In this document: positions 1 to 15,680 of the stretch, piece by piece
Layout: every line of letters starts with the position of its first letter
How positions within the stretch are numbered: the stretch's first letter is position 1
NCBI GenBank assembly: GCA_964477895.1
Contig: CAYZFQ010000011.1
Location: 23,825 to 87,824 of the forward strand
From: an uncultured Bacteriovoracaceae bacterium
GTDB lineage: Bacteria > Bdellovibrionota > UBA2428
Direction of reading: 5' to 3'
DNA: 64,000 nucleotides
Notes under the pieces: model-generated
The model's input: only the letters and a program-made list of their open reading frames with translations
Database searches by the model: none
What the model was told of the DNA's origin: nothing
Position numbers and translations under genes: made by a program

Positions 1-1
1 C

Positions 2-1639
2 ACCACGTCTCTGTGGGCGCGCACTATGGGAAGAGCTCTGACTGCCTTTGATCGTTTCCAAACTCAGCTCGAAAATGGCTATGAGAAAATTTTGATCAAA
101 ACTCTAGCTCATCCCATCAAAACCCTTCTTTTAGGATTGGGAGTCTTTGTCCTCAGTTTAGTGGCCGCAAAATTTGTTCCTAAAACCTTCTTACCGGCCC
201 AAGACACTGGAGAGTTTTCCGTGGGACTCGACATGCCTCCGGGAACCAGTTTGGATTCCATGTCGCAGACCGCGCAAAAAATCGACGAGATCGTGCGCTC
301 TCACAAAGAAGTGCGAACGGCGGTTTTGACAACCGGAAGTCGGGATGGGGAAGCCAACATAGCCGAAATGTTTGTGGAACTCGTACCCGCCCGCGAACGA
401 AATAAAAATACAAGTGAAGTCAAAGATGCCATCCGAGAAGGGTTGAAAGATTTTGCCTATGCCAATCCTAAGGTCAAAGACTTCGACGCCGTGGGAGCCG
501 GCCAACGCCCTTTTAACGTGAACATTATCGGAGACGATTTGGGAGCGCTTGAAAAATACACCGCCCAGGTCTTTGAGAAGATTCGCCACAACCCCGCCCT
601 CAAAGATCCTGACATTTCGTACCGACCGGGTAAACCTGAATTCCAAATCGTTCTGGATAATAAAAAATCTGAGCGCATGGGAGTTTCGGGAAATCTTCTG
701 GGCCTTGAACTGCGCACTCAAATTGAAGGAGCTAAGCCTGCCGTTTTTCGTGAGAACAGTCGTGAGTACGACATCCGAGTGCGTCTCAAAGATGACCAAC
801 GAAATCTAAAAAATGACTTTGCTCAGGTGTATGTTCCCAACATCAACAACACTCTTGTAAAACTTTCCAACGTAGCCCAACCTGTGGAAACCACCGGCCC
901 AGCCAATATCAACCGTCAAGACCGTGGTCGTTATGTGCAGATTTCAGCCGACATTGCACCCGACGGACCCGGGATGGCAGGAGCCACTCAATTGGTAAGA
1001 GATATTATCAGCAAGGAACTACCCTTGCCCCCGGGTATGCGCTACGCCTTTGTAGGACAGGCTGAGAACTTTGCGGAGTTAATGCAAAATATGCTTGTGG
1101 CGGCTGGCCTTGGGGTTTTGTTTATCTATTTAGTGCTCGCCTCCCTCTATGAGTCTTTCGTAACACCCTTTACCATCATGTTGGTTCTTCCTTTGGCAGC
1201 CTGCGGTGCCTTCTACGCCCTACTTATTTCGGGAAAATCTCTCGACCTTTTTTCCATGATTGGCTGTATCATGCTGCTGGGAGTCGCCACAAAAAACTCC
1301 ATTCTTCTTGTGGATTATACCAATCAAATGCTGGCCGAAGGCATGAACCGACGGGACGCCATCATTCGAGCTGGGAAAGTTCGCTTGCGCCCCATTCTCA
1401 TGACAACCTTCGCCCTTATTGCAGGAATGATCCCCATTGCAGTAGGGTTGAATGAAGCGTCAAAACAGCGCACTTCTATGGGTATTGCCATCATCGGGGG
1501 TTTGATCAGCTCCACCTTATTAACTCTTGTCGTGGTGCCCGCGGCCTTTAGTTATGTGGATCGCTTCCGAGTGTGGATTGGGAAATTTTCCGCAAAGATT
1601 GCCGGCACAGCCTCTGCCACTCCTGGGAGTCATTCATGA
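2..1639 (+). CDS. RND (HAE1/AcrB-like) efflux transporter permease, C-terminal half. The 5' end lies outside the window.
   Basis: The ORF is open to the window edge. The 537-aa translation has the second transmembrane bundle and periplasmic loop architecture of AcrB/MexB-type pumps, ending ...LISSTLLTLVVVPAAFSYVDRF. The reading frame has no stop from base 2. Confidence 0.8.
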   Translation, partial: TTSLWARTMGRALTAFDRFQTQLENGYEKILIKTLAHPIKTLLLGLGVFVLSLVAAKFVPKTFLPAQDTGEFSVGLDMPPGTSLDSMSQTAQKIDEIVRSHKEVRTAVLTTGSRDGEANIAEMFVELVPARERNKNTSEVKDAIREGLKDFAYANPKVKDFDAVGAGQRPFNVNIIGDDLGALEKYTAQVFEKIRHNPALKDPDISYRPGKPEFQIVLDNKKSERMGVSGNLLGLELRTQIEGAKPAVFRENSREYDIRVRLKDDQRNLKNDFAQVYVPNINNTLVKLSNVAQPVETTGPANINRQDRGRYVQISADIAPDGPGMAGATQLVRDIISKELPLPPGMRYAFVGQAENFAELMQNMLVAAGLGVLFIYLVLASLYESFVTPFTIMLVLPLAACGAFYALLISGKSLDLFSMIGCIMLLGVATKNSILLVDYTNQMLAEGMNRRDAIIRAGKVRLRPILMTTFALIAGMIPIAVGLNEASKQRTSMGIAIIGGLISSTLLTLVVVPAAFSYVDRFRVWIGKFSAKIAGTASATPGSHS

Positions 1640-4005
1640 GTTCACATGCCGTAACTACGGCAGTTATACTTGCAGCTGGGGCCGGAGAACGCATTCGTGA
1701 TTCTGAAAAGGGTTTGCCTAAACCTCTCGTGGTTCTGGGGGGACTCTATCTGCTCGAGCGTTCCATCTTAAACTTGGATGCTTGCGGAATTAAGCGCTTT
1801 CGAGTGGTCTTAGGCTACCGCGGACAAGAAATTGAGCGAGTGATTCGCAGTTGCAAAAATCTCGTGAGCTTTAAAATTGAATTTCTTTACAATCCCGACT
1901 TCGAAAAAGGAAACGGCTCTTCGCTCGCCAAAGGAGTGGAAGGTCTCCAGGAGCCCTTTCTTTTGACCATGGCCGACCACCTCTTCGGTCCCGACACCCT
2001 TCGACAATTTATTTCCAAAGCTCTTTTAAACGGCGAACGAGCCCAACTTGGGACGGATAAAAACATCAAAGGTGTTTTTGACCTTCCTGATGCCACTAAG
2101 GTTTTAAGTGAAGCCGGCCGAATTGAAAAAATCGGCAAAGAACTTAGTGACTTCAACGAAATCGATACCGGGCTTTTTTATTTCCCTGAGTGGAGTCCGG
2201 AAAAAATTCAAAGCTCTTTTGCTCAAGGAGCAGATTCCGTAAGTGAAATCGTAGCCGAGATTCGCAAAGATCATGGGTTTTTCACGACTTCTTTGGATAA
2301 TGCTTTTTGGCAGGACGTGGACACGCCCGAGATGAAAAAAGAAGCTGAGCGCAGATTGTTTCGCTCTTTGATTAAGCCCACCGACGGTCCCGTGAGCAAA
2401 AAAATTAACCGTAACTTTTCCTTGCCTGTGAGCAAAATTCTTATCCAACTCGGAATAAGTCCCAACGCTGTCACCACCTTTGTTTTTTTATTTACCCTCG
2501 GTGGAGCCGCCCTCGCCACGTCCACCGATTATATGTGGGTGGCTGTGGCGGGCCTCATTTTTCAGATCGCCTCTATTTTAGATGGTTGCGATGGGGAGAT
2601 CGCCCGCCTAACCTACCAAGGCACGGAAGCCGGCGCGTGGTATGACACGCTTACCGACAATGTGCGCTATGGCGTTTTCTTTTGCGCCTTGGGTGTGCAC
2701 GGCTACCGAGTTTCGGGAGAAACCTACTACCTTTGGGCCATGGCCCTCTTTGCACTTTTACTAACCTACATGGTGAGCATGAATGTGAGCTACCTTCGAG
2801 CCACTCGGTCCAAAGGCACGGGACTGGTGGTGACGGCTCAGGTGGAAAAACTCATGGCCGAGCGCCAGAGCTTTTGGGATCGGTACATTTTGGGAGCCCG
2901 CGTCTTGGTGAAGCAGGATGTGAGCGCCCTCATTGTTTTTATCTGTTGCTTGGCGAATCGGCCCACCTGGATTTTCTGGGGCGGCTTTGTTGGCATTGCC
3001 GCCATGACATTTACAGTGGCGCGAGCCCTTAAAGCCGCCTTGCCCGCAAATTCTCAAGGCTCTCCTAAGATTCGAAGTCTATTTTTTCTTCTTATTGGTG
3101 TGATTATTTTTGCCTATCTTTTGAAGAAAATCGACGCCACGGCGGTGGTGGAAGCTATTAGCCATTTGGGCTCCAGCGTTTTTGTAGCCTTCGCAGTGGC
3201 ACCTCTATGGTTTTTTTTCAATTCTCTTAGCCTTCGCACGCTGCTTAAAAACCGGGTTGGTATTTTTGATTTGCTCTACAACCAAGTGGTGGGTGAATCC
3301 TTTAATGTTTTGATTCCCATGGCGGGTTTAGGCGGCGAACCTTACAAAACCAAGCACCTCACGAAATGGGTAGGCCTGGAAGACGCCACCCACGCCATCA
3401 TCAATGACAAACTGCTGCATATTTTGTCGGGCAACGTTTTTACAGCTTTACTTATGTTCTTTGTGTTGGCTGCTGTGCCCATGGAAGGAGCTACTAAAAG
3501 TGCATTGCTTCTCACCACAGTAGCCGTTTCGGGAATTTCACTTTTTATGATCTTGGTGACTCTCTCGCCACTCCCCACTAAATACGCAGGTCGCCTTCTC
3601 AAAAAGTTCAAAATGCTCGACCAGGCCCGAGCAAGCCACGTCCCCCTCGGCACCTATGCCCTCTCATTTTTGTACAAAATGCTCGCTCGAGCTCCTCAGC
3701 TCTTGGAAACCTATATTATCTTTAAACTCCTCGGCGTTGAAACATCTTGGGTGAATATGATCGCGGTAACTGGCCTTATCTCGGCCTCTGCCATGGTCTT
3801 CTTTTTCATTCCCCAGGGAATCGGCGTGAATGAAGGCGGCGTGGTGAAAGCCTTTTCTTTACTCGGTTTAAGCAGTCCTTTGGGTTTGACTTTCGGCATC
3901 ATTCGTCGAGCCCGGGTTGTGTTCTGGGCCGTGGCCGGTATCCTATTGTACGCAACTGTAAGTTTAGTGCAGAAAGGGAGCGCCACATGGAGACCCAGTT
4001 CTTAG
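1636..4005 (+). CDS. Three-domain membrane enzyme: N-terminal nucleotidyltransferase (cytidylyltransferase-like), central CDP-alcohol phosphotransferase, C-terminal flippase-like / LPG-synthase-TM-like domain.
   Basis: ATG at 1636 overlaps the RND stop (ATGA) and follows GGGAG. N-terminus AVILAAGAGERIRD matches the GxGxR NTP-transferase motif. The exact CDP-OH phosphotransferase signature D-G-x2-A-R-x8-G-x3-D-x3-D is present (DGEIARLTYQGTEAGAWYDTLTD). The C-terminal roughly 300 aa is polytopic and resembles the flippase-like domain found fused to lipid-modifying enzymes. Confidence 0.7.
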   Translation: MSSHAVTTAVILAAGAGERIRDSEKGLPKPLVVLGGLYLLERSILNLDACGIKRFRVVLGYRGQEIERVIRSCKNLVSFKIEFLYNPDFEKGNGSSLAKGVEGLQEPFLLTMADHLFGPDTLRQFISKALLNGERAQLGTDKNIKGVFDLPDATKVLSEAGRIEKIGKELSDFNEIDTGLFYFPEWSPEKIQSSFAQGADSVSEIVAEIRKDHGFFTTSLDNAFWQDVDTPEMKKEAERRLFRSLIKPTDGPVSKKINRNFSLPVSKILIQLGISPNAVTTFVFLFTLGGAALATSTDYMWVAVAGLIFQIASILDGCDGEIARLTYQGTEAGAWYDTLTDNVRYGVFFCALGVHGYRVSGETYYLWAMALFALLLTYMVSMNVSYLRATRSKGTGLVVTAQVEKLMAERQSFWDRYILGARVLVKQDVSALIVFICCLANRPTWIFWGGFVGIAAMTFTVARALKAALPANSQGSPKIRSLFFLLIGVIIFAYLLKKIDATAVVEAISHLGSSVFVAFAVAPLWFFFNSLSLRTLLKNRVGIFDLLYNQVVGESFNVLIPMAGLGGEPYKTKHLTKWVGLEDATHAIINDKLLHILSGNVFTALLMFFVLAAVPMEGATKSALLLTTVAVSGISLFMILVTLSPLPTKYAGRLLKKFKMLDQARASHVPLGTYALSFLYKMLARAPQLLETYIIFKLLGVETSWVNMIAVTGLISASAMVFFFIPQGIGVNEGGVVKAFSLLGLSSPLGLTFGIIRRARVVFWAVAGILLYATVSLVQKGSATWRPSS

Positions 4006-4679
4006 CCAAAAGTTTTTTGTTTTTAGCAGGAGTGCAATGCCTGGCCTCGGGCGCGGCCTCAGACTGCAAAACTTTGGAGAATTTTTCTTCCTCTGAAGCA
4101 GGAAAGTTTCCCTTGGGTTGGATTTCTAAATATCCCGAGCACATGCCCGAGATTCTAGAGAAGAAGCTCTACATTGTAGCTCAAGATTCCGGCTTCAAAG
4201 CCGTCCATGCCACCTATGGAAATCATACCGTCACGATTTTGCGCGAACTCAAGGACTCGTGGAATCTGAGTGAGTACCCCATTTTGAAGTGGAAGTGGAA
4301 GGCCGTAAAACTTCCCAAAGATGCCAACGAAGACAAACTTAAGAAGAACGACTCTGCGGCTTCGGTCTATGTGGCCTGGAAATCCAACTCCCTCATGAAA
4401 GCCAAAGCCATTCGATACGCTTGGAGCAGCACTCAGCCTATTGGAGCTCATTTTTCCCGAAGATTTGGCAACGACCAAATCTCCATCAAAGAGAGCGGCA
4501 CATCGAAACTAAACACCTGGGTAGAAGTCGAAACAAATGTTTTAGACGACTACAAAAAATACATGAAGGAACGCAAAGCTCCCGCGAACCCCATTGCCTT
4601 AGTCCTAACCACCGACGCCGACGCGACCCAATCAGAAGCTGAAGCCTTCTATGCTGACTTTAGGATTTGTCGACCTTAA
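3987..4679 (+). CDS. Secreted hypothetical protein, DUF3047-like.
   Basis: Overlaps the upstream gene by 19 nt. Signal-peptide-like N-terminus (FLFLAGVQCLASGAAS). About 220 aa, with lysine- and tryptophan-rich motifs typical of DUF3047. Confidence 0.5.
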   Translation: METQFLAKSFLFLAGVQCLASGAASDCKTLENFSSSEAGKFPLGWISKYPEHMPEILEKKLYIVAQDSGFKAVHATYGNHTVTILRELKDSWNLSEYPILKWKWKAVKLPKDANEDKLKKNDSAASVYVAWKSNSLMKAKAIRYAWSSTQPIGAHFSRRFGNDQISIKESGTSKLNTWVEVETNVLDDYKKYMKERKAPANPIALVLTTDADATQSEAEAFYADFRICRP

Positions 4680-5662
4680 CTTTCGTCTTCAATCTCAAAG
4701 ATCCAGTCGCGGATGGACTGCCTGAAGAGATGTGAATTTTTTGAAAATTCAAAGGCATGTTCGGATTCCATTTCCTGGATTTGCAAATAGGAACCCCGAT
4801 ACTTATCATTGTAAAAATTTCTAATTGCCTCATTATCCACAATCCGGTCGTCGGAGGCTAAAAATATCAACAAGGGGGCCTTGAGCTGCTGGGATTCTTT
4901 TAACAAAGTTTTGCGAAGTTTTCTCGTGATAAAAAGCATGCGGGTGGTGACTTTGCGCAATCCCCAAAGGTCTTGCTGAATCCACTCTAAACCCTCACCC
5001 GAATCGATAAAGGCCCGATCATCTAAGGGGGTAGGAAAATCCTGCTGCTTTAAAGGCAGAAGAACATCCAAGACCGAGGCGAAACCCAATACGGTTTTTT
5101 CCAGAGGCTGGAAATCTCCATTCTTTTTATTCATATGTGTGGAGGGCGAACTTAAAATTACAGAACGAATTATAGATTCGTTTCTGGTTGCAACGGGCAC
5201 AACCAAGCGAGCCCCAAAACAATTGCCAAAAATATGTATAGGAAGATTTTGCCCTTTTAAAAATTCAATTCCCGCCTGCACATCATTAAAGAGATCTCGA
5301 CTGCTTCCTGCGTGGCCACGAACTCCACGACTATGACCCGAACCTCGGCGATCGAGCGCTAATACGGTAATTCCATGCTGAGCCAAATACACTGCCGTTT
5401 TGCGGTGCCACTCTGAGTGACTCTGCATCCCAGCGATCATCAATAACGCGGCTCGGGGTTGGCGGGCTTTTACAAAAAGGGCCGACAAAGAATGCTGGTC
5501 CTTAAAAAGCAAAGGGACTGAAATGCGATGAAGCTGAGCCGAAGCCAGGTAAGGGATTTTGTCTTCCTTATGAACAATTCCTGAAACAAAGCGAAAGGGC
5601 TGTAGAGCCACCGACCACTGACTTAAGAAACATCCTAAGAAAGCAAGGCGGCCTATATTCAT
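4676..5662 (-). CDS. Alpha/beta-fold hydrolase with a Cys in the nucleophile-elbow position (GNCFG).
   Basis: HGITVLALDRRGSGHS, then the nucleophile elbow IHIFGNCFGARL, a downstream Asp (LASDDRIV) and a C-terminal His (SEHAFE). Start codon overlaps the upstream stop (ATGA). Confidence 0.7.
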   Translation of the reverse strand: MNIGRLAFLGCFLSQWSVALQPFRFVSGIVHKEDKIPYLASAQLHRISVPLLFKDQHSLSALFVKARQPRAALLMIAGMQSHSEWHRKTAVYLAQHGITVLALDRRGSGHSRGVRGHAGSSRDLFNDVQAGIEFLKGQNLPIHIFGNCFGARLVVPVATRNESIIRSVILSSPSTHMNKKNGDFQPLEKTVLGFASVLDVLLPLKQQDFPTPLDDRAFIDSGEGLEWIQQDLWGLRKVTTRMLFITRKLRKTLLKESQQLKAPLLIFLASDDRIVDNEAIRNFYNDKYRGSYLQIQEMESEHAFEFSKNSHLFRQSIRDWIFEIEDES

Positions 5663-6777
5663 ATGGTTTTTTCGAGGCCCAGGCCCTGCAAAGGTCCGGG
5701 CCCGAAGGTGTCGGGGTAGTTTAACAATCCGCCGCGACCAAACATCACCACAGGAGACACTGTGTCCTTTTCCAAAAGAAGAGTCCCAAAGGCGCCTTCC
5801 TGAGCCACCAAAGAGGGTCCACTAGCGCGGGCAACAGTCAGAGCAGCCCGCGAGAGCACAGAAGTCTCGCCCACTTGCGCGCCCACGATAATTCCAAAAT
5901 TCTCACGTCGAAGAATTTCAACAAGCTCGAGCGAACGCAGAAGACCACCCACCTTAGAAACTCGCAAATTAGTGATCCAACGCCCCGGCAGGTCTTTATA
6001 AAGATTCACATCGTCGGCTCGGCAAAGACTTTCATCCAATACAATGCCACACCCCAAGGCCACACTCAGTTGACTTAAACCTTCGGCATCCCGAGGAGCC
6101 AAGGCTTCTTCTATTGCAAAAAGCGGCACGGGAACCTGGCGCAGATAGGCCAAAGCCGCTTCGAGACGTCCCGCCCAAACATTGTTCCCATCCAACCGCA
6201 AACGAAGCTTGCCCTGGAGTCCCTTTGTTTCAGACAAAGATTTAAAAAGAAGAAACTTTTCCTCATCGGCCTTAAAATCTTCTGAAATTTTAAATTTAAA
6301 ATCGGTGAATCCCATATCCATGTAGGTAGTCAGAATTCGTGAAAATTTTTCACCCTTCTCATCACTGAGAACGGCCGTATATTGAAATTTTCCGTCTAAG
6401 GGTGGGATGCCCAGAAGTTCCTCTACACTGATCGACTTTTCTCGGGCCAAGAGATCGAGCAAGGCAATTTCCATAGCTGCCCAGGCCGCGGGATTAAGGT
6501 CAATTTCATTTTTAATCTCTGCAGAAAAGGTCTTGAGCTCCGTCAATGACCTGAGGTTTTCCAAGCGCGACGTCAACGTGTTTAACCACTCAATCGCTCC
6601 TGCGGTAGTTTCTCCTGTCACATACGATCGGGGACAGCCTTCTCCCAGCCCGGCAACTCCACCGCGCTTGGCTTCCACCCACACGCTGTCTGAGACTTTT
6701 CGCTCAGCGGAAGCGTGTTTAAAACTGCTTTTCATAGGAATTTGAATTTGTTCAATCGAGAAGAAAATCTGAGTCAT
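5659..6777 (-). CDS. Enolase-superfamily enzyme, MLE subgroup (N-acylamino-acid racemase / dipeptide epimerase / o-succinylbenzoate synthase-like).
   Basis: KxK motif (FKFKISEDF). Metal ligands D (LRLDGNNVW), E (AIEEAL), D (IVLDESL). Second catalytic Lys in NLRVSKVGGLL. Confidence 0.75.
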   Translation of the reverse strand: MTQIFFSIEQIQIPMKSSFKHASAERKVSDSVWVEAKRGGVAGLGEGCPRSYVTGETTAGAIEWLNTLTSRLENLRSLTELKTFSAEIKNEIDLNPAAWAAMEIALLDLLAREKSISVEELLGIPPLDGKFQYTAVLSDEKGEKFSRILTTYMDMGFTDFKFKISEDFKADEEKFLLFKSLSETKGLQGKLRLRLDGNNVWAGRLEAALAYLRQVPVPLFAIEEALAPRDAEGLSQLSVALGCGIVLDESLCRADDVNLYKDLPGRWITNLRVSKVGGLLRSLELVEILRRENFGIIVGAQVGETSVLSRAALTVARASGPSLVAQEGAFGTLLLEKDTVSPVVMFGRGGLLNYPDTFGPGPLQGLGLEKTI

Positions 6778-6783
6778 TTTTTC

Positions 6784-8577
6784 CTATACCGCCATTTGTG
6801 GGCCTTCGTCAGGCACCTTGGCTTCTTCTGCAGCTACTTCAGGAGCTATGAGATCGTCTGTTGCCGTTGCGATATCAACCACCGCATGATTAGCAAAGCT
6901 AAACTTCACATCTTTTTTGTACTGTAGAGCAATAATCTTAAATTGGGATTCACGCTGCCCTTGCTTCAGACAAAACTTTTTAAATTCCTCAAAAGTTCCG
7001 GGCTTCAAAACCAAAAGCTCCAAAGACAAGAGTCGGCCACTCTTGCGCTTGACATCGTATTCCACGTTGATCTCGGTAAGCCCCTTTTCCACCAATTCTA
7101 CGAGTTCACGGCGCTTGGCCGCGGCCTCTTCCAAATCTTCTACCTTAGGCTCATAAATCAAACGGTAAACGGCTCGATCGGGGTCCGCAATCATCATGTA
7201 AAATGACGAAGAGAGCTGCAAAGCATTCTCAGCCTGGCGCAAGCCAAAAATCACCTGAGACTCATAGAGCTTCTCTCCGGTAATATTGGTGACACCCTTG
7301 CCTTTTTGAACGAAACGCAAAAGAGGTGCCTTGTGGAAAAAACCATCCACCTGCACAATATCGTTCATATTGTAACGATAAAGTCCGCTATCCGTGGTTA
7401 CAAAAATATAATACTGAGACTGATCTTTGAGCTGACCCAATCCGATAAAGTTATGTCTCTCGGCTTCCCAGTCATCTTTTTCTACGAACTCAAAAAAGTA
7501 ATCTCGGAAAGTTGGCACGCCGGCATTGGTGTCCGAAGAAATGGGTACGGTGCCCCGAAACTCCGACGACAAATACCCAATGTCGCGAACCAAAGTGGTC
7601 GGAGGAAATTCATTCTTTAGCTGTTCAAAAAAGATGGCGCAGGAGCCGCCCGTCCAACAGCCCACGGCTTGCAAATCTGGGAAAACATCCTGAATGCGCA
7701 GGCGACCCCGTCGCTTATAAACTTCGTTAAGTTCTTCGGCCCAGGCTCTTTTCGCACCCAGCCGACCCACTAAAGAACGACGCTGTTCCACCGAAAGCTC
7801 TTCCATTCGAGAGAAACCACCGTCGCGCAAGTCCTTGAAGAGCTCTTCCCAGTGAGAATTTAAAAGTTTTACCAGTCGAACGATCGTGCTCGGATTGGCG
7901 GTACTGAGGTACGACACATCCCGGTAGCGGAGCGCTAAGCGCAGAATAAGTTGGTATTTCAAATCATAGTCTTCGATGGAAAAAATTGGCGGCGGTACGA
8001 TATATTTTTTCCGCACTAACTTGGGCATTCCTTGATACATATGGCCTGATGTTGAGCCAAAGCTTGCTCCGGAGTCGGGTCGGTAGCCTTCAATCGCTGG
8101 GCTTACAATAGCGAGAATATGCCCCTTCAGCACGTCCGGACGATCTTTCATCAAGCGGTAAACAAACAAATTCGTGATGTGCTTATGAGAGCGCAAGGTG
8201 GTTTTTAGGACCGGAATAAACTTTGGCTTGCCCGTAGTGCCACTCGTCATGGCATAAAAACTAGGCAAATCCGGATTAATGGTGGGTCGCCCGGTGAGGT
8301 CTTGGCTATCCATCCACGAGCGAAGCGACTCATAGTCATGCACGGGAACATACTTACGAAAATCCGAGAGTTTTTCGATGAGGTTAAACTTATGAATTTT
8401 ACCAAAATAAGTTTCTTGGTGGTCTTCAAGAATTTTTTTCAACAGCCTAAACTGCGCCCCATCAACATCTTTAGCGTCTTTCTCAAGGGCCTCATAAAGC
8501 CGAGCCCCCTCAGTCTTGACTCGCAGCTCCATTAAAGTGTTTACAAATTTGCCTTTAACGCGACTCGTAACTTTCAT
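6784..8577 (-). CDS. GH3-family acyl-acid amido synthetase (adenylate-forming, auxin-responsive GH3-like).
   Basis: All three GH3 motifs are present: MTSGTTGKPKFIPV, GYLSSEF and YRYNMNDIVQV. 597 aa. Confidence 0.75.
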   Translation of the reverse strand: MKVTSRVKGKFVNTLMELRVKTEGARLYEALEKDAKDVDGAQFRLLKKILEDHQETYFGKIHKFNLIEKLSDFRKYVPVHDYESLRSWMDSQDLTGRPTINPDLPSFYAMTSGTTGKPKFIPVLKTTLRSHKHITNLFVYRLMKDRPDVLKGHILAIVSPAIEGYRPDSGASFGSTSGHMYQGMPKLVRKKYIVPPPIFSIEDYDLKYQLILRLALRYRDVSYLSTANPSTIVRLVKLLNSHWEELFKDLRDGGFSRMEELSVEQRRSLVGRLGAKRAWAEELNEVYKRRGRLRIQDVFPDLQAVGCWTGGSCAIFFEQLKNEFPPTTLVRDIGYLSSEFRGTVPISSDTNAGVPTFRDYFFEFVEKDDWEAERHNFIGLGQLKDQSQYYIFVTTDSGLYRYNMNDIVQVDGFFHKAPLLRFVQKGKGVTNITGEKLYESQVIFGLRQAENALQLSSSFYMMIADPDRAVYRLIYEPKVEDLEEAAAKRRELVELVEKGLTEINVEYDVKRKSGRLLSLELLVLKPGTFEEFKKFCLKQGQRESQFKIIALQYKKDVKFSFANHAVVDIATATDDLIAPEVAAEEAKVPDEGPQMAV

Positions 8578-8727
8578 TCAGGTCCTTTCAAAAGAGGAAA
8601 GTCTTTGAGAATACAAAGCCTTCGCCGAACAAAATATGCCCCGCATCATCAACCAAGGCAAGAGATTGAACCCTATGGATGGATATTAAATACAGATACT
8701 TAGGTCTCGTAAAGTTTTATTAAGTCC

Positions 8728-9816
8728 CTAGAGCGAGGTTCCAGGCGGGATTTGAGTCTTGTCGTGAGCATCTATATTAAAATCAGGCGGGAAAAGCGCC
8801 AAAGTGTGGGGACCGCGCGCGGGAATATCGGCCGACACGGCCGTGGCACGGAATGTAACTAAATTAAAGTTATTTAGCAGCTGAGCTTCGGTGTACCACG
8901 TGATTTTACCCGGAATCGAATCAGCGACGGCGTACTCGTAGGCACTATCAGGGTTTTCACTGGGTCGACCATAACCTACCACGGTCATCGCGTGTCCCAC
9001 GTTATCAAAGGTCACAGGCCAATTACCATCCAGCGATCGCCGCACCATCAAAGGAAGTTGGCGGCGATCCATTCGATAGCCCCAGTAGCGTGACTCGAGA
9101 TATTTCACCCAACCCACATTGGCGTCGCTCACGGGTTTGACCAAGACAAAATCATTTACGGTAGATTCCTGAGAAAAATCCGAGCCCAATATCTTAGAAG
9201 CCGACTCTTTTATGGCAATCTCTTCACTTAAAAATGTCGTCCGCACTTGGGCCTCACCGTATTTGGCAGTGAGAAAATCTCGAATGAAAATGTCGGCGCT
9301 AGCGAAGTCTGAAAATTCATTGCTGAGGAGGCGCTCTTTAGCCCTCGGAAACGAAAGACTCGCATCTGCTGCTACGCGGGAAATGTTTTCAAATGGCAGG
9401 TGAATGTTGAAGTTCTGAAACAAAGGATAGACAATATCACTCGTGGCGCTTGCTGCCGAACGCGCAAGAGATTTGCCGTGCTTGATCAAAGTTTCAAAGA
9501 ATTCAATCTGCCACCCCCCCTCATAATCGTCGAGAAAGAAGTCTTTTTTAGACTGATGAATATAGTGCATCCGCTCAAAGTCCACCCAAAATTTTACATC
9601 TCGCTCCACCTCAATCATCACGTCTAGATTCTCGCGACTCAGCGCTCGCGATTCCAAAAGGTGGCTCATGGAATAAGCCCAACAGTGAGCCGTAGTCCCT
9701 TGATCGCGCAAAGTCTTAAGTGGCAAACGCACCCCACCCCAAAGCGAGCCGAGAATTCCCAAGGAAAAATACACTCCGACAAAAGCACGAAGCGCAAAAA
9801 AATTAAAATTGATCAT
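8728..9816 (-). CDS. Papain-like (C1 family-like) cysteine peptidase, secreted or membrane-anchored.
   Basis: QGTTAHCWAYSMSH resembles the QGxCGSCWAF catalytic-Cys motif. NVGHAMTVVGYG resembles the catalytic-His HAVxxVGYG motif. Hydrophobic N-terminus. Confidence 0.6.
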   Translation of the reverse strand: MINFNFFALRAFVGVYFSLGILGSLWGGVRLPLKTLRDQGTTAHCWAYSMSHLLESRALSRENLDVMIEVERDVKFWVDFERMHYIHQSKKDFFLDDYEGGWQIEFFETLIKHGKSLARSAASATSDIVYPLFQNFNIHLPFENISRVAADASLSFPRAKERLLSNEFSDFASADIFIRDFLTAKYGEAQVRTTFLSEEIAIKESASKILGSDFSQESTVNDFVLVKPVSDANVGWVKYLESRYWGYRMDRRQLPLMVRRSLDGNWPVTFDNVGHAMTVVGYGRPSENPDSAYEYAVADSIPGKITWYTEAQLLNNFNLVTFRATAVSADIPARGPHTLALFPPDFNIDAHDKTQIPPGTSL

Positions 9817-9992
9817 GAGCCCCTCCGAAAAATCCAGCTTTTATACGTAGCGTTCTTTGAGCCCCCTCTCAAGCCAGTGTAGTTCTGATATGAAAAATTA
9901 AGGGAAACTGAGGACGTCAACTTGTGCGCCTTGCCGAGGGCGATGGAGCTAAAGCTTTGATTTTTACAAGTGCTGCCCCTACAATCCTAAGA

Positions 9993-11102
9993 ATGAATAA
10001 GCGCTCATTCACTTTTATGCTCCTCACCGCACTTCCATTGTTTTCTTCTTGTGGGCTCTTTCAGCCTCGACAATGCCAACCCGAAGCCGCTCAAAAAATT
10101 GGCTTCGAAGACGCCCTGGCGGGGAATGCAGGTCGCGCCGGCCTCGCCCAAGGTGGCGCCTGCAAAGGGGATTATTCCCCTTCTTCCTTTGAGAAAGATT
10201 ACATGTCGGGCTTTATGCGCGGACGAGAAGAAGCTTGCCAAAGTTCCCGAGCCACAGAATTGGCCGTCCTTGATGCTCGAGAGGGGATGGAGATGAAGCG
10301 CCTGAATATATTTGGAGTCTGTACGGAAGGAAAAAACCTCAAAGAATCTCTCGAAAAGGCTTATCGCAAAGCTTTTGCGTCGGAGTTTTGCAATTTGGAA
10401 AGGGCAAAAAAGTCCGCTCGAAATCAAGCGGATGCTCTGCAGGAAGCCGACTTTTCAGCCTTTAAAAAAGTTTGCGATGCTAAAACTCAAAAAGCACTCA
10501 GCCAAAACTTCACCTTGGAATATGAAACACGGTTGCGAGAGCGCTGCTCGCCTCTGGAACTCCAAGCGCAGGGCATGAAAGATGCTAAGGCTAAAATTGA
10601 CATGATGACATCAATGACGGCTCTCAAAGCCTGCCCCCTAGCCCAACAAGCGGAAGGCCTTGCCGCCTATTCTCGAGGCTATTCCGACACCCAAAGCCTG
10701 ATGTTGAAAGAAGAAGAATTGAAATTAAACCGCGACCGCGAAGAGCGCGAACGACAGCTGCGAGAGCGCGAATTGCAGCTCGGCGAGCAACGACAGCAAA
10801 ATTACACGGCTTCCCAAGGAGGGGGTGTGATTCATAGCGTGAACGGGCAGGACTTACTTGTGCAGTGCGATGTGCGAGCGAGTCGGGCCCAGCTTCTTTT
10901 GAAAAATCTCTCGGAACGCACTTTGTATATGAACGGTCCTATCGAAGTGGACGTTTACGACGAACGGGGCCAGTTTCTCACTCGAGAACGAGACACCCTA
11001 TACAAAACAATTGCGCCCCGCGGCATCGACACTTTGTTTGTGAATATTACTGCGCTGGGCAATCCCACTCGGTGCAGCCTTCGCTTCAGAGGTCCAGGTT
11101 AA
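9993..11102 (+). CDS. Lipoprotein with a coiled-coil, Arg/Glu-rich segment; hypothetical.
   Basis: MNKRSFTFMLLTALPLFSSCG has a lipobox (LFSSC). The internal ATG at 9993 is preferred over the ORF-track start at 9924. Contains an RDREERERQLRERELQLGEQRQQ segment. Confidence 0.5.
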   Translation: MNKRSFTFMLLTALPLFSSCGLFQPRQCQPEAAQKIGFEDALAGNAGRAGLAQGGACKGDYSPSSFEKDYMSGFMRGREEACQSSRATELAVLDAREGMEMKRLNIFGVCTEGKNLKESLEKAYRKAFASEFCNLERAKKSARNQADALQEADFSAFKKVCDAKTQKALSQNFTLEYETRLRERCSPLELQAQGMKDAKAKIDMMTSMTALKACPLAQQAEGLAAYSRGYSDTQSLMLKEEELKLNRDREERERQLRERELQLGEQRQQNYTASQGGGVIHSVNGQDLLVQCDVRASRAQLLLKNLSERTLYMNGPIEVDVYDERGQFLTRERDTLYKTIAPRGIDTLFVNITALGNPTRCSLRFRGPG

Positions 11103-11145
11103 GCCGTCCCCTCAAGAAAATGCCCAAAGTCCCCGATAAAGAGGG

Positions 11146-11628
11146 ATGAAAAGTGAAAACATTGAGAGCCAAGATGAAAGCAATCGCCGCCGCGGATTTC
11201 TGATCAATCCGGAATTTCAGTGGTCCTTTATTCGCCACTGCTTAGGACTCGCGGCCATCATACTTTTGGTGGTTTTTGCCGCTAACAGTCTTTTCTTCTG
11301 GTCCCTTCACAATATGGGACAAAGAGCGGGACTCGACCCCACCCACATCTTTTTTAGATTTTTAGCTCAACAACAATCGCGCATGCTCTGGATATTTATT
11401 GGTACCTCCGGAATTGTTGCGTCTACGATTTTAAGTTTTGGCTTGCGTTTGTCCCACCGAATCGCGGGTCCCCTTTTTAAACTCGACCGATTTCTAAAAG
11501 ATCCTTCCAAGGCTCGGCGGGGGCTGCGCTTTCGTACCGGAGACTACTTTCCTGAACTCGCAGAAAGTGCCAACGAGGCTTTGCGTCCGCGGGCTAAGGT
11601 CGAAACAAAGAAGGCTTCTGGTGAATAG
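11146..11628 (+). CDS. Small integral membrane protein, hypothetical.
   Basis: Two or three hydrophobic helices (LGLAAIILLVVFAANSLFFW; MLWIFIGTSGIVASTILSFGL). Confidence 0.45.
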   Translation: MKSENIESQDESNRRRGFLINPEFQWSFIRHCLGLAAIILLVVFAANSLFFWSLHNMGQRAGLDPTHIFFRFLAQQQSRMLWIFIGTSGIVASTILSFGLRLSHRIAGPLFKLDRFLKDPSKARRGLRFRTGDYFPELAESANEALRPRAKVETKKASGE

Positions 11629-12382
11629 TCGGAACTTTCTTTATCTTTTTCTAGGCCTAGTCATTCTGGGTTTTCATCGCTTAAGTCAAAGCGATCGTAA
11701 ACTCGCGCCTTTAACGGAGACCGAGTTGATCGACAACTTGAACGACGAGTCTCCCACCCAAGAATCGCTAAACTTTGCCTTTCACCAAGTCACCGAGAAC
11801 GCCGAGAGAGAGCCCAGTGACGACGAGTCAGTGGCTCCCAATTCTCTCCAGCCCGCACTGGAAATCATCAACATTGAGGATGCGCGCAGACTCCGACTCG
11901 AGAATACTGACGCCTTTGTCGCAAAGGTCCAAGAAGCACTCGACAAAATCCCCGCCAGCGACACGGTGACTCGGGATGCCTACTTGGAGGAACTCGCAAC
12001 TGTTTTACCGCAACAAGGCGAAATTATTTCTCAACTCGCCATCAATGAAATTAAAAACATCCGCTCAAGCGACGAGGACGCCAATTCCTCTCACAACAAT
12101 GCGCGACTGGAGCGACTTTTGGAAATCTACTACCGCTCAGAAGTTGACCCCGCGCGGCTGCTGAACGGGGCCGTGGATATGGCCCTAGGTGTAGGTGATG
12201 AGAAATTAAAAAGGCAACTCACCCAATCTTTGACGCAACGTTATCCGGAAATGACTGAAGCTTTGGCTGAGCGTTTAGCCAATGATGTGCCCGTCACTCT
12301 CTCGGCCCAACCTGAAGTGCAGTCGCCTGCAAGCCGCGAACGCTATCCCTCTTCTTCTCCTGAATTTTCGCCCGACCGCTAA
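11621..12382 (+). CDS. Acidic secreted hypothetical protein.
   Basis: A GTG at 11621 overlapping the upstream stop gives a clean signal peptide (MNSRNFLYLFLGLVILGFHRLSQS). The alternative ATG at 11567 would overlap the upstream gene by 62 nt. The protein is Asp/Glu-rich. Confidence 0.4.
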   Translation: MNSRNFLYLFLGLVILGFHRLSQSDRKLAPLTETELIDNLNDESPTQESLNFAFHQVTENAEREPSDDESVAPNSLQPALEIINIEDARRLRLENTDAFVAKVQEALDKIPASDTVTRDAYLEELATVLPQQGEIISQLAINEIKNIRSSDEDANSSHNNARLERLLEIYYRSEVDPARLLNGAVDMALGVGDEKLKRQLTQSLTQRYPEMTEALAERLANDVPVTLSAQPEVQSPASRERYPSSSPEFSPDR

Positions 12383-12886
12383 CTAGCTTCGGTAATAGTG
12401 GCAGGTGTAGCCACCAGGATTTTTCTGAAGGTAATCCTGGTGGTATTTTTCCGCGGGATAAAACTTTGTAAAAGCTAAGACTTGTGTCACCACAGGCCGA
12501 GCCCATTTAGCAGAGGCCTCCACTTCTTTAATTTTTGCCTCGGCCGTATTTTTCTGAGCATCGTCTCTGTAAAAAATAACTGAGCGATACTGCGAGCCAT
12601 GATCATTTCCCTGGGAATTAAGTGTGGTGGGATCATGCAATCTAAAAAAATGATCAAGCAGTGTGACTAAGCTCACAATGGCGGGGTCGAATTCAATTTG
12701 CAGAGCCTCAGCATGACCACTTTTACCGCCCTTTACAGTTTCGTAAGTCGGCGACTCTACATGACCGCCGGCATAACCCACCTCGGTATCTATGACCCCT
12801 GGAATTTGCCGAAAGAGTTCTTCCATTCCCCAAAAGCAGCCCCCGGCTAGAGTGAGGATTTCGCTTTTCATCTTGGAATTTGTCAT
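12383..12886 (-). CDS. msrA: Peptide methionine sulfoxide reductase MsrA.
   Basis: LAGGCFWGMEELF contains the GCFWG active-site motif. 167 aa. Confidence 0.9.
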   Translation of the reverse strand: MTNSKMKSEILTLAGGCFWGMEELFRQIPGVIDTEVGYAGGHVESPTYETVKGGKSGHAEALQIEFDPAIVSLVTLLDHFFRLHDPTTLNSQGNDHGSQYRSVIFYRDDAQKNTAEAKIKEVEASAKWARPVVTQVLAFTKFYPAEKYHQDYLQKNPGGYTCHYYRS

Positions 12887-15652: not shown

Positions 15653-15680
15653 AAGGCTCCTGACCGCACCTGTCATAACC

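What the first reader, a model, noticed from the sequence alone, without database searches (positions are those of the whole stretch)
2..4679. RND exporter gene translationally coupled to a cytidylyltransferase / CDP-alcohol phosphotransferase / flippase-like fusion and a DUF3047 protein
The pump's stop overlaps the next start (ATGA at 1636-1639), and the third gene overlaps the second by 19 nt, so the three genes are co-translated. The middle protein has an N-terminal GxGxR nucleotidyltransferase, an exact CDP-OH phosphotransferase motif (D-G-x2-A-R-x8-G-x3-D-x3-D, seen in the sequence) and a polytopic flippase-like tail. This cytidylyltransferase plus CDP-alcohol phosphotransferase pairing is the IPCT/DIPPS architecture, which makes a phosphodiester such as di-inositol phosphate. 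Here the enzyme is also fused to a flippase-like domain and wired to an RND exporter. Inference: the operon makes and exports an unusual phospho-headgroup lipid or polyol-phosphodiester. A phosphonolipid (CMP-aminoethylphosphonate) route is one speculative possibility for a Bdellovibrio-like organism.
Basis: partly seen in the sequence, partly recalled or inferred. Interest (0 to 1): 0.6.

Follow-up and report, generated by a model that had tools for sequence, protein, structure and literature searches.

The report
Fused inositol-lipid synthase with built-in flippase
A Bdellovibrio-like bacterium encodes one 789-residue protein that most likely activates inositol phosphate with CTP, attaches it to a membrane lipid and flips the product outward. 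Relatives in many phyla sit beside dedicated lipid exporters, so this points to an undescribed envelope-lipid pathway rather than the heat-protective solute pathway it resembles.

Summary
The middle gene is a true homologue of the archaeal IPCT/DIPPS enzyme (PDB 4MND, profile E 7e-69; AF2 model pLDDT 93, top Foldseek hit 4MND).

It belongs, however, to a separate clade, which I call clade B (39 of 91 loci compared). Clade B lacks the neighbours of the solute pathway (MIPS, IMPase, HD). It is instead fused or adjacent to an LPG_synthase_TM flippase-like domain. It is also enriched for HpnN-like MMPL transporters, MlaC/HpnM-like proteins, TolC-like OEPs and DUF3047.

The cytidylyltransferase pocket is conserved: 49 of 56 clade-A positions are kept. 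The DIPPS acceptor signature (LDRYAD, RD.R) is replaced. The three domains match, in the same order, the three genes of the MIPS-headed 'alternative' inositol-lipid cluster of Bacteroides.

Best reading: Kennedy-type synthesis and flipping of an inositol-phospholipid, with DUF3047 as a periplasmic partner.

The AcrB-type RND gene upstream is physically coupled, but it is not the conserved partner. Neither its closest homologues nor the fusion's closest relatives keep this adjacency. The phosphonolipid idea is not supported. Verdict: a new variant of a known kind, of moderate to high interest.

The parts
2..1639 (+). C-terminal half (545 aa) of an AcrB/HAE1-type RND permease, cut by the window start. 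It is physically coupled to the next gene but is not the conserved partner of the family.
   Evidence: ACR_tran 397 bits, profile positions 500-1020 of 1021. The closest homologues are 58-64% identical HAE1 pumps of Bdellovibrionota/Bacteriovorax. It scores only 19 bits against the MMPL profile of the clade-B exporters and 15.9 bits against HpnN.
1625..1639 (+). Junction between genes 1 and 2: SD-like GGGAG (1625-1629), ATG 1636, and the RND stop TGA 1637-1639 (ATGA overlap).
   Evidence: Sequence read.
1636..4005 (+). 789-aa three-domain fusion: cytidylyltransferase, CDP-alcohol phosphotransferase and flippase-like domain.
   Evidence: Pfam and NCBIfam. More than 100 full-length homologues at 35-49% identity. 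AF2 model pLDDT 93.3, pTM 0.82.
1636..2370 (+). Cytoplasmic IPCT-like nucleotidyltransferase domain (res 1-245), including LAAGxGxR (res 12-19, nt 1669-1692).
   Evidence: Foldseek hits 4JD0 and 2XME (inositol-1-phosphate cytidylyltransferases) at 28-33% identity and TMt 0.81-0.87. 49 of 56 positions conserved in MIPS-linked IPCT/DIPPS are kept.
2389..3039 (+). Six-helix CDP-alcohol phosphotransferase membrane domain (res 252-468). The catalytic motif Dx2DGx2ARx8Gx3Dx3D lies at res 316-341 (nt 2581-2658).
   Evidence: CDP-OH_P_transf 45.5 bits. Helices taken from the model. Clade-B signature DTxTDNxRY and KQDVSA replaces the DIPPS LDRYAD and RD.R. Clade-B inserts at res 381-392 and 414-422.
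3070..3990 (+). Polytopic LPG_synthase_TM (MprF-flippase/HpnL-like) domain (res 479-785).
   Evidence: PF03706 92 bits. HpnL subfamily 79 bits, below its cut-off. Homologous to the LPG_synthase_TM gene of the Bacteroides finegoldii inositol-lipid cluster at E 3.5e-29.
3974..4005 (+). Junction between genes 2 and 3: SD-like AAGGGAG (3974-3980), ATG 3987, and a 19-nt overlap with the end of the fusion gene.
   Evidence: Sequence read.
3987..4679 (+). DUF3047 protein (230 aa). It has a signal-peptide-like N-terminus (res 1-23, nt 3987-4055) followed by a beta-sandwich. It is predicted to be periplasmic and is a conserved partner of clade-B enzymes.
   Evidence: PF11249 95 bits. Model pLDDT 86.6, with res 1-23 below 50. 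Foldseek gives only generic CBM/lectin-like beta-sandwich matches, with TM-scores of about 0.25-0.6. Cys228 is invariant and an N-terminal Cys is conserved in 8 of 10 aligned homologues. DUF3047 occurs in 8 of 39 clade-B loci and 0 of 52 clade-A loci.

Best explanation
The 789-aa protein is a single-polypeptide 'activate, attach, flip' machine for a Kennedy-type polyol-phospholipid, most likely an inositol-phospholipid.

1. The cytoplasmic N-domain makes CDP-inositol from CTP and L-myo-inositol-1-phosphate. This is inferred from homology.
2. The adjoining six-helix CDP-alcohol phosphotransferase passes the phospho-inositol to the free hydroxyl of a membrane lipid (diacyl- or dialkyl-glycerol, or ceramide). 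It does not pass it to a second inositol phosphate. This is inferred from the remodelled acceptor site and from gene context.
3. The C-terminal MprF/HpnL-like domain moves the finished lipid to the periplasmic leaflet. This is inferred from family membership.
4. The co-translated, signal-peptide-bearing DUF3047 beta-sandwich acts on or binds the exposed head group in the periplasm. This step is speculative.

In other phyla the same enzyme clade is followed by an HpnN-like RND protein, an MlaC-like shuttle and a TolC-like channel that would carry the lipid to the outer membrane. This window lacks those genes. The upstream AcrB-type pump is a lineage-specific neighbour whose role, if any, is unproven.
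For: **Shown here**
- Domain membership and catalytic motifs.
- Homology to IPCT/DIPPS across both N-terminal domains.
- High-confidence model: cytoplasmic domain, six helices, then a polytopic tail.
- An NJ tree of 91 loci splits MIPS/IMPase/HD-linked classical enzymes (clade A) from clade B, which contains the window.
- Context enrichment, clade B versus clade A: flippase-like 27/39 vs 0/52; MlaC-like 15 vs 0; OEP 15 vs 0; MMPL 13 vs 1; DUF3047 8 vs 0; MIPS 1 vs 18; IMPase 0 vs 12.
- The partner transporters score best against HpnN/BstA, HpnM and HpnL, which are lipid-export families.
- Clade-A-conserved positions are kept in 43/56 of the NT domain (49/56 in the window protein). Only 26/48 are kept in the CDP-OH domain. 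Fisher p = 0.02.
- Two Arg and one Asp that are invariant next to the catalytic Asp in DIPPS are absent from all of clade B.
- CDP-OH plus flippase fusions without the NT domain also exist.

**Support for inositol as the head group**
- The only clade-B locus with a visible precursor gene (L044) has a MIPS immediately upstream.
- The B. finegoldii operon MIPS, NDP-sugar synthase, (hypothetical), CDP-alcohol PT, LPG_synthase_TM, HAD has each module homologous to the window's domains, in the same order: E 5e-15, 2.5e-20 and 3.5e-29.
- Species carrying that cluster make inositol-phosphoryl-dihydroceramide (PMC9246714).

**Chemical precedent**
- Rhodothermus marinus IPCT+BEPIS uses CDP-inositol as head-group donor to dialkylether glycerol (Jorge et al. 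2015, as described in PMC4587543).
Against: - No MIPS or inositol monophosphatase lies in the 64-kb window, nor within 10 kb of 38 of the 39 clade-B loci. Inositol is therefore inferred, not shown.
- No biochemical data exist for any clade-B member in the literature searched.
- The lipid acceptor is unknown.
- Flippase activity of LPG_synthase_TM domains outside MprF is itself a prediction (PMC5898192). The HpnL function is called unclear in PMC12324291.
- The C-terminal domain has no PDB match by sequence.
- The loci compared are not phylogenetically independent; seven, for example, are Latescibacterota. The Fisher p-values therefore overstate the support.
- DUF3047 has no informative structural match.
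Confidence: 0.55

Rival explanations
1. Same architecture and mechanism, but a different head group. The N-domain would activate another phospho-alcohol (glycerol phosphate, another cyclitol or sugar-alcohol phosphate, phosphoethanolamine or phosphocholine, or 2-aminoethylphosphonate). The lipid made would then be a non-inositol phospho- or phosphono-lipid.
For: - No MIPS in the window or in 38 of 39 clade-B neighbourhoods.
- Three clade-A-conserved NT positions (N86, W89, F188) are variable in clade B; the window protein has F89 and P188.
- From my own knowledge: Bacteriovorax stolpii makes sphingophosphonolipids.
Against: - 49 of 56 IPCT-conserved positions are kept in the window protein.
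- The solved inositol-1-phosphate cytidylyltransferases are the best structural matches (28-33% identity). PntC (17-18%) and LicC-type enzymes rank far lower.
- L044 and the Bacteroides cluster place MIPS next to homologous genes.
- No PEP mutase was seen in the annotated neighbourhoods.
Confidence: 0.2
2. The flipped lipid is not an end product. It would be a periplasmic donor whose phospho-head group is transferred onto LPS, glycans or proteins, in the way PE serves EptA or PG serves OpgB. DUF3047 or other partners would do the transfer.
For: - Several clade-B loci carry alkaline-phosphatase-superfamily genes (Phosphodiest/Sulfatase), Wzx-like Polysacc_synt flippases, methyltransferases and radical-SAM enzymes.
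- DUF3047 has invariant acidic, polar and aromatic residues (E115, N121, D122, D210, several Trp) on a carbohydrate-binding-like fold.
Against: - None of those accessory genes is in the window.
- The recurrent HpnN-like, MlaC-like and OEP partners point to transport of an intact lipid.
- DUF3047 has no match to any transferase or hydrolase fold.
Confidence: 0.15
3. In this lineage the upstream AcrB-type RND pump would have replaced the HpnN-like exporter and would extrude the product of the fusion enzyme.
For: - The ATGA overlap and the absence of an intergenic terminator or promoter signal.
- At family level, clade-B enzymes do associate with RND-superfamily transporters (13 of 39 loci).
- The window lacks any MMPL, MlaC or OEP gene that could otherwise do the job.
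Against: - The pump is a typical HAE1 member with many 58-64% identical homologues in Bdellovibrionota.
- In L114 and L115 its homologues are followed by unrelated convergent genes.
- The fusion's nearest relatives (L113, L003, L110) have no RND upstream.
- It is not related to the clade-B MMPL transporters (19 bits).
Confidence: 0.12
4. It is a genuine IPCT/DIPPS that makes the compatible solute di-myo-inositol phosphate, with an unrelated membrane domain appended.
For: The best NCBIfam and PDB hits are IPCT/DIPPS. JGI pipelines annotate many homologues as CDP-L-myo-inositol myo-inositolphosphotransferase.
Against: - 222 bits against the 580-bit equivalog cut-off.
- It falls in a separate clade without MIPS, IMPase or HD neighbours.
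- The DIPPS-invariant R342, D345, Y343, Y394 and R430 are lost.
- It is fused or linked to a lipid flippase and lipid exporters.
- The source appears to be a Bdellovibrionota genome of about 49% GC, and I found no marker of thermophily. DIP is a solute of hyperthermophiles.
Confidence: 0.04

Closest known systems
Bifunctional IPCT/DIPPS of Archaeoglobus fulgidus (AF0263, PDB 4MND) and its MIPS-linked homologues (di-myo-inositol-phosphate pathway)
   Same: The same two-domain N-terminal architecture, the same catalytic motifs, and 57 shared conserved positions. It is the best sequence and fold match. CDP-alcohol presumably passes directly from the cytoplasmic domain to the membrane domain.
   Different: - It forms a separate clade.
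- The acceptor-side residues LDRYAD and RD.R are replaced, and there is an insert of about 20 residues between TM4 and TM5.
- It carries an extra 310-aa flippase-like domain.
- It has no MIPS, IMPase or HD neighbours; lipid exporters take their place.
- The product is predicted to be a lipid, not a solute.
IPCT + BEPIS pathway of Rhodothermus marinus (Jorge, Borges & Santos 2015; described in PMC4587543)
   Same: This is the only experimentally shown route in which CDP-inositol donates the head group to a lipid alcohol, which is the chemistry proposed here.
   Different: - There the enzymes are separate genes in an operon with MIPS.
- No flippase domain, DUF3047 or exporter link has been reported.
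- I could not obtain the BEPIS sequence, so orthology of the CDP-OH domain is untested.
'Alternative' inositol-lipid cluster of Bacteroides/Prevotella (Heaver et al. 2022, PMC9246714), seen here in B. finegoldii (L116)
   Same: NTP transferase, CDP-alcohol phosphatidyltransferase and LPG_synthase_TM protein occur in the same order. Each is homologous to the corresponding window domain. The proposed chemistry is likewise Kennedy-type.
   Different: - They are separate genes, with an extra hypothetical gene, a HAD hydrolase and a MIPS in the operon.
- Similarity is distant (the FLIP part is about 29% identical).
- Their function is still unconfirmed in that paper.
- There is no DUF3047.
MprF flippase domain / AglD C-domain / HpnL (Pfam PF03706, COG0392)
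   Same: The C-terminal domain passes the Pfam threshold. As in MprF, a synthase and a flippase-like domain are fused in one protein.
   Different: The partner enzyme is a CDP-alcohol phosphotransferase rather than an aminoacyl-PG synthase or a glycosyltransferase. The domain scores below the HpnL cut-off and has no PDB match by sequence.
HpnL-HpnM-HpnN hopanoid set and BstA sterol transporter
   Same: In other clade-B loci the partners are the same three protein families (flippase-like, MlaC-like, MMPL RND) plus a TolC-like OEP. PMC12324291 proposes an inner-to-outer-membrane shuttle for HpnM and HpnN.
   Different: - All score below the Hpn equivalog cut-offs.
- Only one locus (L044) has a squalene-hopene cyclase nearby.
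- None of these partner genes is in the window.

Membership tests
CTP:inositol-1-phosphate cytidylyltransferase (IPCT) | Sequence and fold similarity to solved IPCTs (2XME, 4JD0, and the N-domain of 4MND) | tested here: met
   Family profile against 2XME E 2e-37 and 4JD0 E 6e-26. Foldseek TMt 0.81-0.87 at 28-33% identity.
CTP:inositol-1-phosphate cytidylyltransferase (IPCT) | Retention of positions conserved in MIPS-linked IPCT domains | tested here: met
   49 of 56 are kept in the window protein and 43 of 56 across clade B. Exceptions in the window protein include W89F and F188P.
CTP:inositol-1-phosphate cytidylyltransferase (IPCT) | A source of inositol-1-phosphate (MIPS) in the neighbourhood or the genome | tested here: not met
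   A custom MIPS HMM finds nothing in the 64-kb window. The rest of the genome could not be reached.
CTP:inositol-1-phosphate cytidylyltransferase (IPCT) | Formation of CDP-inositol in vitro | not testable with these tools
   Needs an enzyme assay.
DIPP synthase (CDP-inositol:inositol-1-phosphate transferase) | NCBIfam equivalog NF041135 score at or above 580 | tested here: not met
   222.5 bits.
DIPP synthase (CDP-inositol:inositol-1-phosphate transferase) | Residues invariant in MIPS-linked enzymes next to the catalytic Asp (LDRYAD; RD.R.F) | tested here: not met
   The window has TDNVRY and KQDVSA. R342, Y343, D345, Y394 and R430 occur in 0% of clade B.
DIPP synthase (CDP-inositol:inositol-1-phosphate transferase) | Synteny with MIPS, IMPase and the HD/DUF4202 phosphohydrolase | tested here: not met
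   Clade B versus clade A: MIPS 1/39 vs 18/52, IMPase 0/39 vs 12/52, HD 0/39 vs 23/52. None is in the window.
CDP-alcohol phosphatidyltransferase superfamily (PF01066) | HMM threshold and the motif Dx2DGx2ARx8Gx3Dx3D | tested here: met
   45.5 bits against a cut-off of 22. The motif is complete at res 316-341.
LPG_synthase_TM / MprF-flippase-like (PF03706) | Pfam gathering threshold | tested here: met
   92 bits against 33.4, covering profile positions 5-295 of 302.
LPG_synthase_TM / MprF-flippase-like (PF03706) | Lipid translocation activity, or structural match to the MprF flippase domain | not tested
   The PDB sequence search found nothing. Foldseek output for the whole model was saturated by nucleotidyltransferase hits. 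Activity needs an experiment.
HpnL (TIGR03476) | Subfamily cut-off of 195.65 bits and a hopanoid gene context | tested here: not met
   79 bits. No squalene-hopene cyclase was found among the window genes scanned up to 22 kb.
DUF3047 (PF11249) | Pfam gathering threshold | tested here: met
   95.4 bits against 27.
RND permease, HAE1/AcrB type (PF00873) | Pfam threshold | tested here: met
   397 bits for the half-gene present in the window. Full-length NCBIfam cut-offs cannot be applied to a truncated gene.
HpnN-like MMPL lipid exporters (the conserved clade-B partner) | Similarity of the window's RND gene to the clade-B-linked MMPL proteins or to HpnN | tested here: not met
   19 bits against the clade-B MMPL profile and 15.9 bits against HpnN.
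Bacteroides 'alternative' inositol-lipid cluster | Homologous NTP transferase, CDP-alcohol PT and LPG_synthase_TM modules in the same order | tested here: met
   E 5e-15, 2.5e-20 and 3.5e-29 against B. finegoldii L116.
Bacteroides 'alternative' inositol-lipid cluster | MIPS and a HAD hydrolase in the same operon | tested here: not met
   Neither is next to the window genes.
IPCT + BEPIS pathway | Orthology of the CDP-OH domain to R. marinus BEPIS | not tested
Phosphonate cytidylyltransferase route (PntC / CMP-AEP) | Closest similarity to PntC and a PEP mutase nearby | tested here: not met
   PntC (6PD2) is 17-18% identical and ranks below all IPCT structures. No PEP_mutase appears in the Pfam lists.

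The most novel reading that the evidence does not exclude
Clade B would define a previously unrecognised envelope-lipid system spanning many phyla. These include Bdellovibrionota, Bacteroidota/Saprospiraceae, Myxococcota, Latescibacterota, Gemmatimonadota and Methylomirabilota. A CDP-inositol-dependent lipid synthase is hard-wired, by fusion or by operon, to an HpnL-like flippase. The product is handed to an HpnN-like RND protein, an HpnM/MlaC-like shuttle, a TolC-like channel and the DUF3047 protein, which place an inositol-phospholipid in the outer membrane. The window protein would be the fully fused core of that system. DUF3047 would gain its first functional assignment.
Probability: 0.35. 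Interest if true: 0.75.

Novelty: new variant of a known kind. Interest (0 to 1): 0.55.

Why it matters
- **Rare lipids, unconfirmed route.** Inositol lipids are considered rare in bacteria. The Kennedy-type (CDP-inositol) route has one biochemical precedent (R. marinus) and one unconfirmed genomic proposal (Bacteroides/Prevotella).
- **A simple test object.** A single polypeptide that carries activation, transfer and a flippase-like domain is an unusually clean construct for testing that route by heterologous expression.
- **Annotation errors.** The clade split shows that many database entries named 'CDP-L-myo-inositol myo-inositolphosphotransferase' in mesophiles are probably lipid synthases, not solute synthases.
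- **Links to open questions.** The recurrent link to HpnN-, HpnM- and HpnL-like proteins and to DUF3047 gives testable roles to several families of unknown function. It also ties into the open question of how non-LPS lipids reach the outer membrane.

Tried and rejected
- **Upstream DNA.** I tried to fetch the DNA before the window start to see the pump's partners. Exact-protein look-ups of the fusion and of DUF3047 found no contig on record. Cluster look-up gave singletons without names.
- **Genome scan.** These were still useful as the clade-A comparison set.
- **Metagenome scan.** A scan with the C-terminal domain confirmed only 23 loci, few of them long.
- **Acceptor-site residues.** The 4MND paper is not held, so the roles of the acceptor-site residues are inferred from conservation only.
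- **Promoters and terminators.** The scan matched chance expectation.
- **Rest of the window.** Genes at 9.9-22 kb are unrelated: MsrA, DUF4423, AAA/DUF4143 and NADH dehydrogenase.
- **Plasmid search.** The tblastn gave only three weak hits, but one was the informative B. finegoldii cluster.
- **Readings rejected.** I rejected the DIP solute synthase, the phosphonolipid route and a conserved AcrB partnership; the reasons are given under the rival explanations.


Full report
**1. What is in the sequence**

Three co-directional genes occupy 2-4679.

- The first ORF runs off the window start and ends at 1639. It is the C-terminal half of an AcrB/HAE1-type RND permease: ACR_tran 397 bits, profile positions 500-1020 of 1021.
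- Its TGA (1637-1639) overlaps ATG 1636 of the second gene. A GGGAG lies 6 nt upstream.
- The second gene (1636-4005, 789 aa) carries three Pfam domains: NTP_transf_3 (res 9-133), CDP-OH_P_transf (res 275-386) and LPG_synthase_TM (res 485-762).
- The motifs LAAGxGxR and Dx2DGx2ARx8Gx3Dx3D (res 316-341) are intact.
- The third gene (3987-4679, 230 aa, DUF3047 at 95 bits) starts 19 nt inside the second. AAGGGAG lies 6 nt upstream.

Overlaps of this kind permit translational coupling but do not prove it. A promoter/terminator scan found nothing above chance.

**2. The fusion is real and recurrent**

- A homologue search returned more than 100 clusters at 90% identity with the same three-domain architecture. 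They are about 800 aa long and 35-49% identical to the window protein. Where a source names them, they come from Bacteroidota (including Saprospiraceae), Deltaproteobacteria and Myxococcales MAGs.
- An exhaustive search of 1.84 billion cluster representatives found 357 relatives at E <= 1e-30. About 15-20 of these are full-length three-domain representatives at the 50% identity level.
- That search also found CDP-OH plus flippase fusions that lack the cytidylyltransferase.
- The closest relative of all (59% identity, L113) has the flippase part as a separate gene overlapping by 4 nt. Fusion and operon arrangements therefore interconvert.

**3. Homology of the N-terminal two domains**

- NCBIfam's best hit is the bifunctional IPCT/DIPPS equivalog over res 8-390. 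The score is 222 bits against a cut-off of 580.
- A profile of the family hits the A. fulgidus IPCT/DIPPS structure 4MND at E 7e-69. It also hits the stand-alone IPCT structures 2XME and 4JD0.
- An AlphaFold2 model (pLDDT 93.3, pTM 0.82) shows three parts: a cytoplasmic Rossmann-like domain (1-245), six long helices (252-468) and a polytopic helical tail (479-785).
- Its best Foldseek hits are 4MND (E 6e-21, TMt 0.78) and then the IPCTs (28-33% identity). The phosphonate-specific PntC is only 17-18% identical.

**4. It is not the solute enzyme: two clades**

I collected 116 loci. I called ORFs, clustered them and annotated the recurrent clusters with Pfam. An NJ tree of the NT plus CDP-OH region of 91 loci splits cleanly.

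- **Clade A** (52 loci, median 447 aa) carries the di-myo-inositol-phosphate context: MIPS in 18 loci, inositol monophosphatase in 12, and an HD/DUF4202 phosphohydrolase in 23.
- **Clade B** (39 loci, including the window) carries a flippase-like domain or gene in 27, MlaC-like genes in 15, TolC-like OEP in 15, MMPL in 13 and DUF3047 in 8. MIPS appears in only one clade-B locus.
- The reciprocal counts in clade A are 0, 0, 0, 1 and 0. The loci are not independent, so the p-values are indicative only.

Typical clade-B arrangements:

| Locus | Gene order |
|---|---|
| L006 | fusion, DUF3047, MMPL, OEP, MlaC |
| L088 | fusion, OEP, MlaC, MMPL |
| Latescibacterota L016-L022 | FLIP, OEP, NT-CDPOH, MlaC, MMPL |

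The MMPL proteins score best against HpnN and BstA. The MlaC-likes score best against HpnM, and the separate flippase-likes against HpnL. All are below the equivalog cut-offs. These are lipid-export families. A 2025 preprint proposes HpnM and HpnN as an inner-to-outer-membrane hopanoid shuttle and calls the HpnL function unclear (PMC12324291).

**5. Donor side conserved, acceptor side remodelled**

- Of the positions at least 80% conserved in clade A, 43 of 56 in the cytidylyltransferase domain are kept in clade B, and 49 of 56 in the window protein.
- Only 26 of 48 in the membrane domain are kept. Fisher p = 0.02.
- The catalytic motif itself is shared. The residues that follow it differ. Clade A reads G.W.D..LDRYAD and, in a later helix, RD.R.F. 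Clade B reads G.W.DT..DN..Y and K[QR]D[VF].A.
- Two arginines and an aspartate that are 94-100% conserved in clade A occur in 0% of clade B.
- Clade B also has inserts between TM4 and TM5, at res 381-392 and 414-422.

I infer that the acceptor is no longer the anionic inositol-1-phosphate. I could not confirm the structural roles of these residues, because the 4MND paper is not held.

**6. Which head group?**

Three observations favour inositol.

- The NT pocket is conserved.
- In the one clade-B locus with a precursor gene, a long-form MIPS (NAD_binding_5, 330 bits) lies immediately upstream of the enzyme. This is L044, from Methylomirabilota. It lies next to a squalene-hopene cyclase and an OEP-MlaC-MMPL set.
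- A Bacteroides finegoldii record (L116) carries the operon MIPS, NDP-sugar synthase, hypothetical, CDP-alcohol PT, LPG_synthase_TM, HAD. This is the 'alternative' inositol-lipid cluster of Heaver et al. 2022 (PMC9246714). Its three relevant proteins are homologous to the window's three domains in the same order, at E 5e-15, 2.5e-20 and 3.5e-29.

Heaver et al. propose CDP-inositol plus a lipid alcohol giving an inositol lipid. They report inositol-phosphoryl-dihydroceramide in species that have only this cluster. They also state that the functions are unconfirmed.

The chemistry has one biochemical precedent, R. marinus IPCT+BEPIS (Jorge et al. 2015, as summarised in PMC4587543).

Against inositol: no MIPS or IMPase lies in the 64-kb window, nor near 38 of the 39 clade-B genes.

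**7. DUF3047**

- It has a signal-peptide-like N-terminus: res 1-23 have pLDDT below 50.
- It has an N-terminal Cys, conserved in 8 of 10 aligned homologues, and an invariant C-terminal Cys228. These fit a periplasmic disulfide.
- It has many invariant Trp, Asp, Glu and Asn residues.
- The model (pLDDT 86.6) is a beta-sandwich. Its only PDB matches are generic: CBM11/28/30, CIA30, a beta-domain of glucuronyl C5-epimerase and CFAP20, with TM-scores of about 0.25-0.6.
- Its linkage to clade B in at least four separate arrangements makes it a real component (window, L003/L110, L006, and L027/L038/L043/L061). Its role is open; head-group binding or handling is my guess.

**8. The RND pump**

- It is a standard HAE1 pump with many 58-64% identical homologues in Bdellovibrionota, Bacteriovorax and Bdellovibrionaceae MAGs.
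- Downstream of its homologues in L114 and L115 lie convergent Lon and HIT genes.
- Upstream of the fusion's nearest relatives lie unrelated genes: a short divergent ORF in L113, and a glycolysis block in L003 and L110.
- It scores 19 bits against the clade-B MMPL profile.

The coupling is therefore specific to this lineage. A functional hand-off remains possible, at about 0.1, but nothing beyond adjacency supports it.

**9. Verdict**

- Observation: confirmed.
- Interpretation: partly supported. The architecture and the 'lipid made and sent outward' idea hold. The DIP-type product, the phosphonolipid route and a conserved RND partnership do not.
- Best mechanism (confidence 0.55): CDP-inositol-dependent synthesis of a phospholipid by the first two domains, flipping by the third, and DUF3047 as a periplasmic partner.
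- Novelty: a new variant of a known kind. This is Kennedy-type inositol-lipid synthesis, here fully fused and, at family level, tied to HpnLMN-like export genes.
- Interest: 0.55.

Noticed in passing
window 4676-8577, minus strand: Three overlapping or adjacent genes converge on DUF3047: an alpha/beta hydrolase (Hydrolase_4, 114 bits), an enolase-superfamily racemase/epimerase-like protein, and a GH3-family ligase. The GH3 protein's only NCBIfam hit is the planctomycete lyso-ornithine-lipid synthetase OlsH, at 90 bits against a cut-off of 620. This may be an amino-lipid cluster. OlsH is described in PMC12493201.
   Followed up: partly
window 5659-6777 (-); L027 5065-6078, L038 5569-6582, L043 3450-4463: Homologues of the window's enolase-superfamily protein (25-26% identity, E 1e-10 to 1e-13) lie about 4 kb upstream of the clade-B enzyme in three unrelated MAG loci. 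It is unclear whether this is chance or a further conserved component.
   Followed up: no
L008, L009, L010, L089 and proteins P0037, P0043, P0049, P0084 (Saprospiraceae subclade): In full-length three-domain homologues the last two catalytic Asp of the CDP-OH motif are replaced (for example WYEQFASN, WYRRFSAD). In L010 even the DGCDGE block has decayed to EGSEQD. These may be catalytically dead phosphotransferase domains kept within an intact fusion.
   Followed up: partly
L044 (Methylomirabilota MAG) 1-12567: The gene order is OEP, MlaC, an HpnN-like MMPL (574 bits, close to the HpnN cut-off), MlaC, then squalene-hopene cyclase, a long-form MIPS, the clade-B NT-CDPOH enzyme and a radical-SAM gene. 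This raises the possibility of an inositol-phosphate-modified hopanoid or a hopanoid-associated inositol lipid.
   Followed up: partly
L027, L038, L043, L061: These clade-B loci carry extra genes. They include a second, divergent CDP-OH_P_transf paralogue (428-471 aa, motif DGVDGKxAR), a Wzx-like Polysacc_synt flippase, a SAM methyltransferase, radical-SAM/SPASM proteins and an alkaline-phosphatase-superfamily phosphodiesterase. Together they suggest elaboration or onward transfer of the head group.
   Followed up: partly
L016-L022 (Latescibacterota): The R of the DGxxAR motif is Lys in these loci (DGEIAK). It is Val in L027 and L038, and Gln in L061. The conserved cluster also includes a TPR-PPIase, a sulfatase-family gene and a GMC oxidoreductase.
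   Followed up: no
Representatives P0254, P0258, P0262, P0264, P0283, P0284, P0289: These proteins align only to res ~230-788 of the query. They are CDP-alcohol phosphotransferase plus flippase-like fusions without the cytidylyltransferase domain.
   Followed up: no
window 18921-20627 (+): A single 568-aa ORF combines the NADH dehydrogenase 20-kDa (NuoB-like, res 37-145) and 49-kDa (NuoD-like, res 298-568) domains. This implies a fused NuoB-(C)-D subunit.
   Followed up: no
window 8728-12382 and 13857-16829: Several sizeable ORFs (362, 392, 160, 271, 459 and 382 aa) have no Pfam match at the thresholds used.
   Followed up: no
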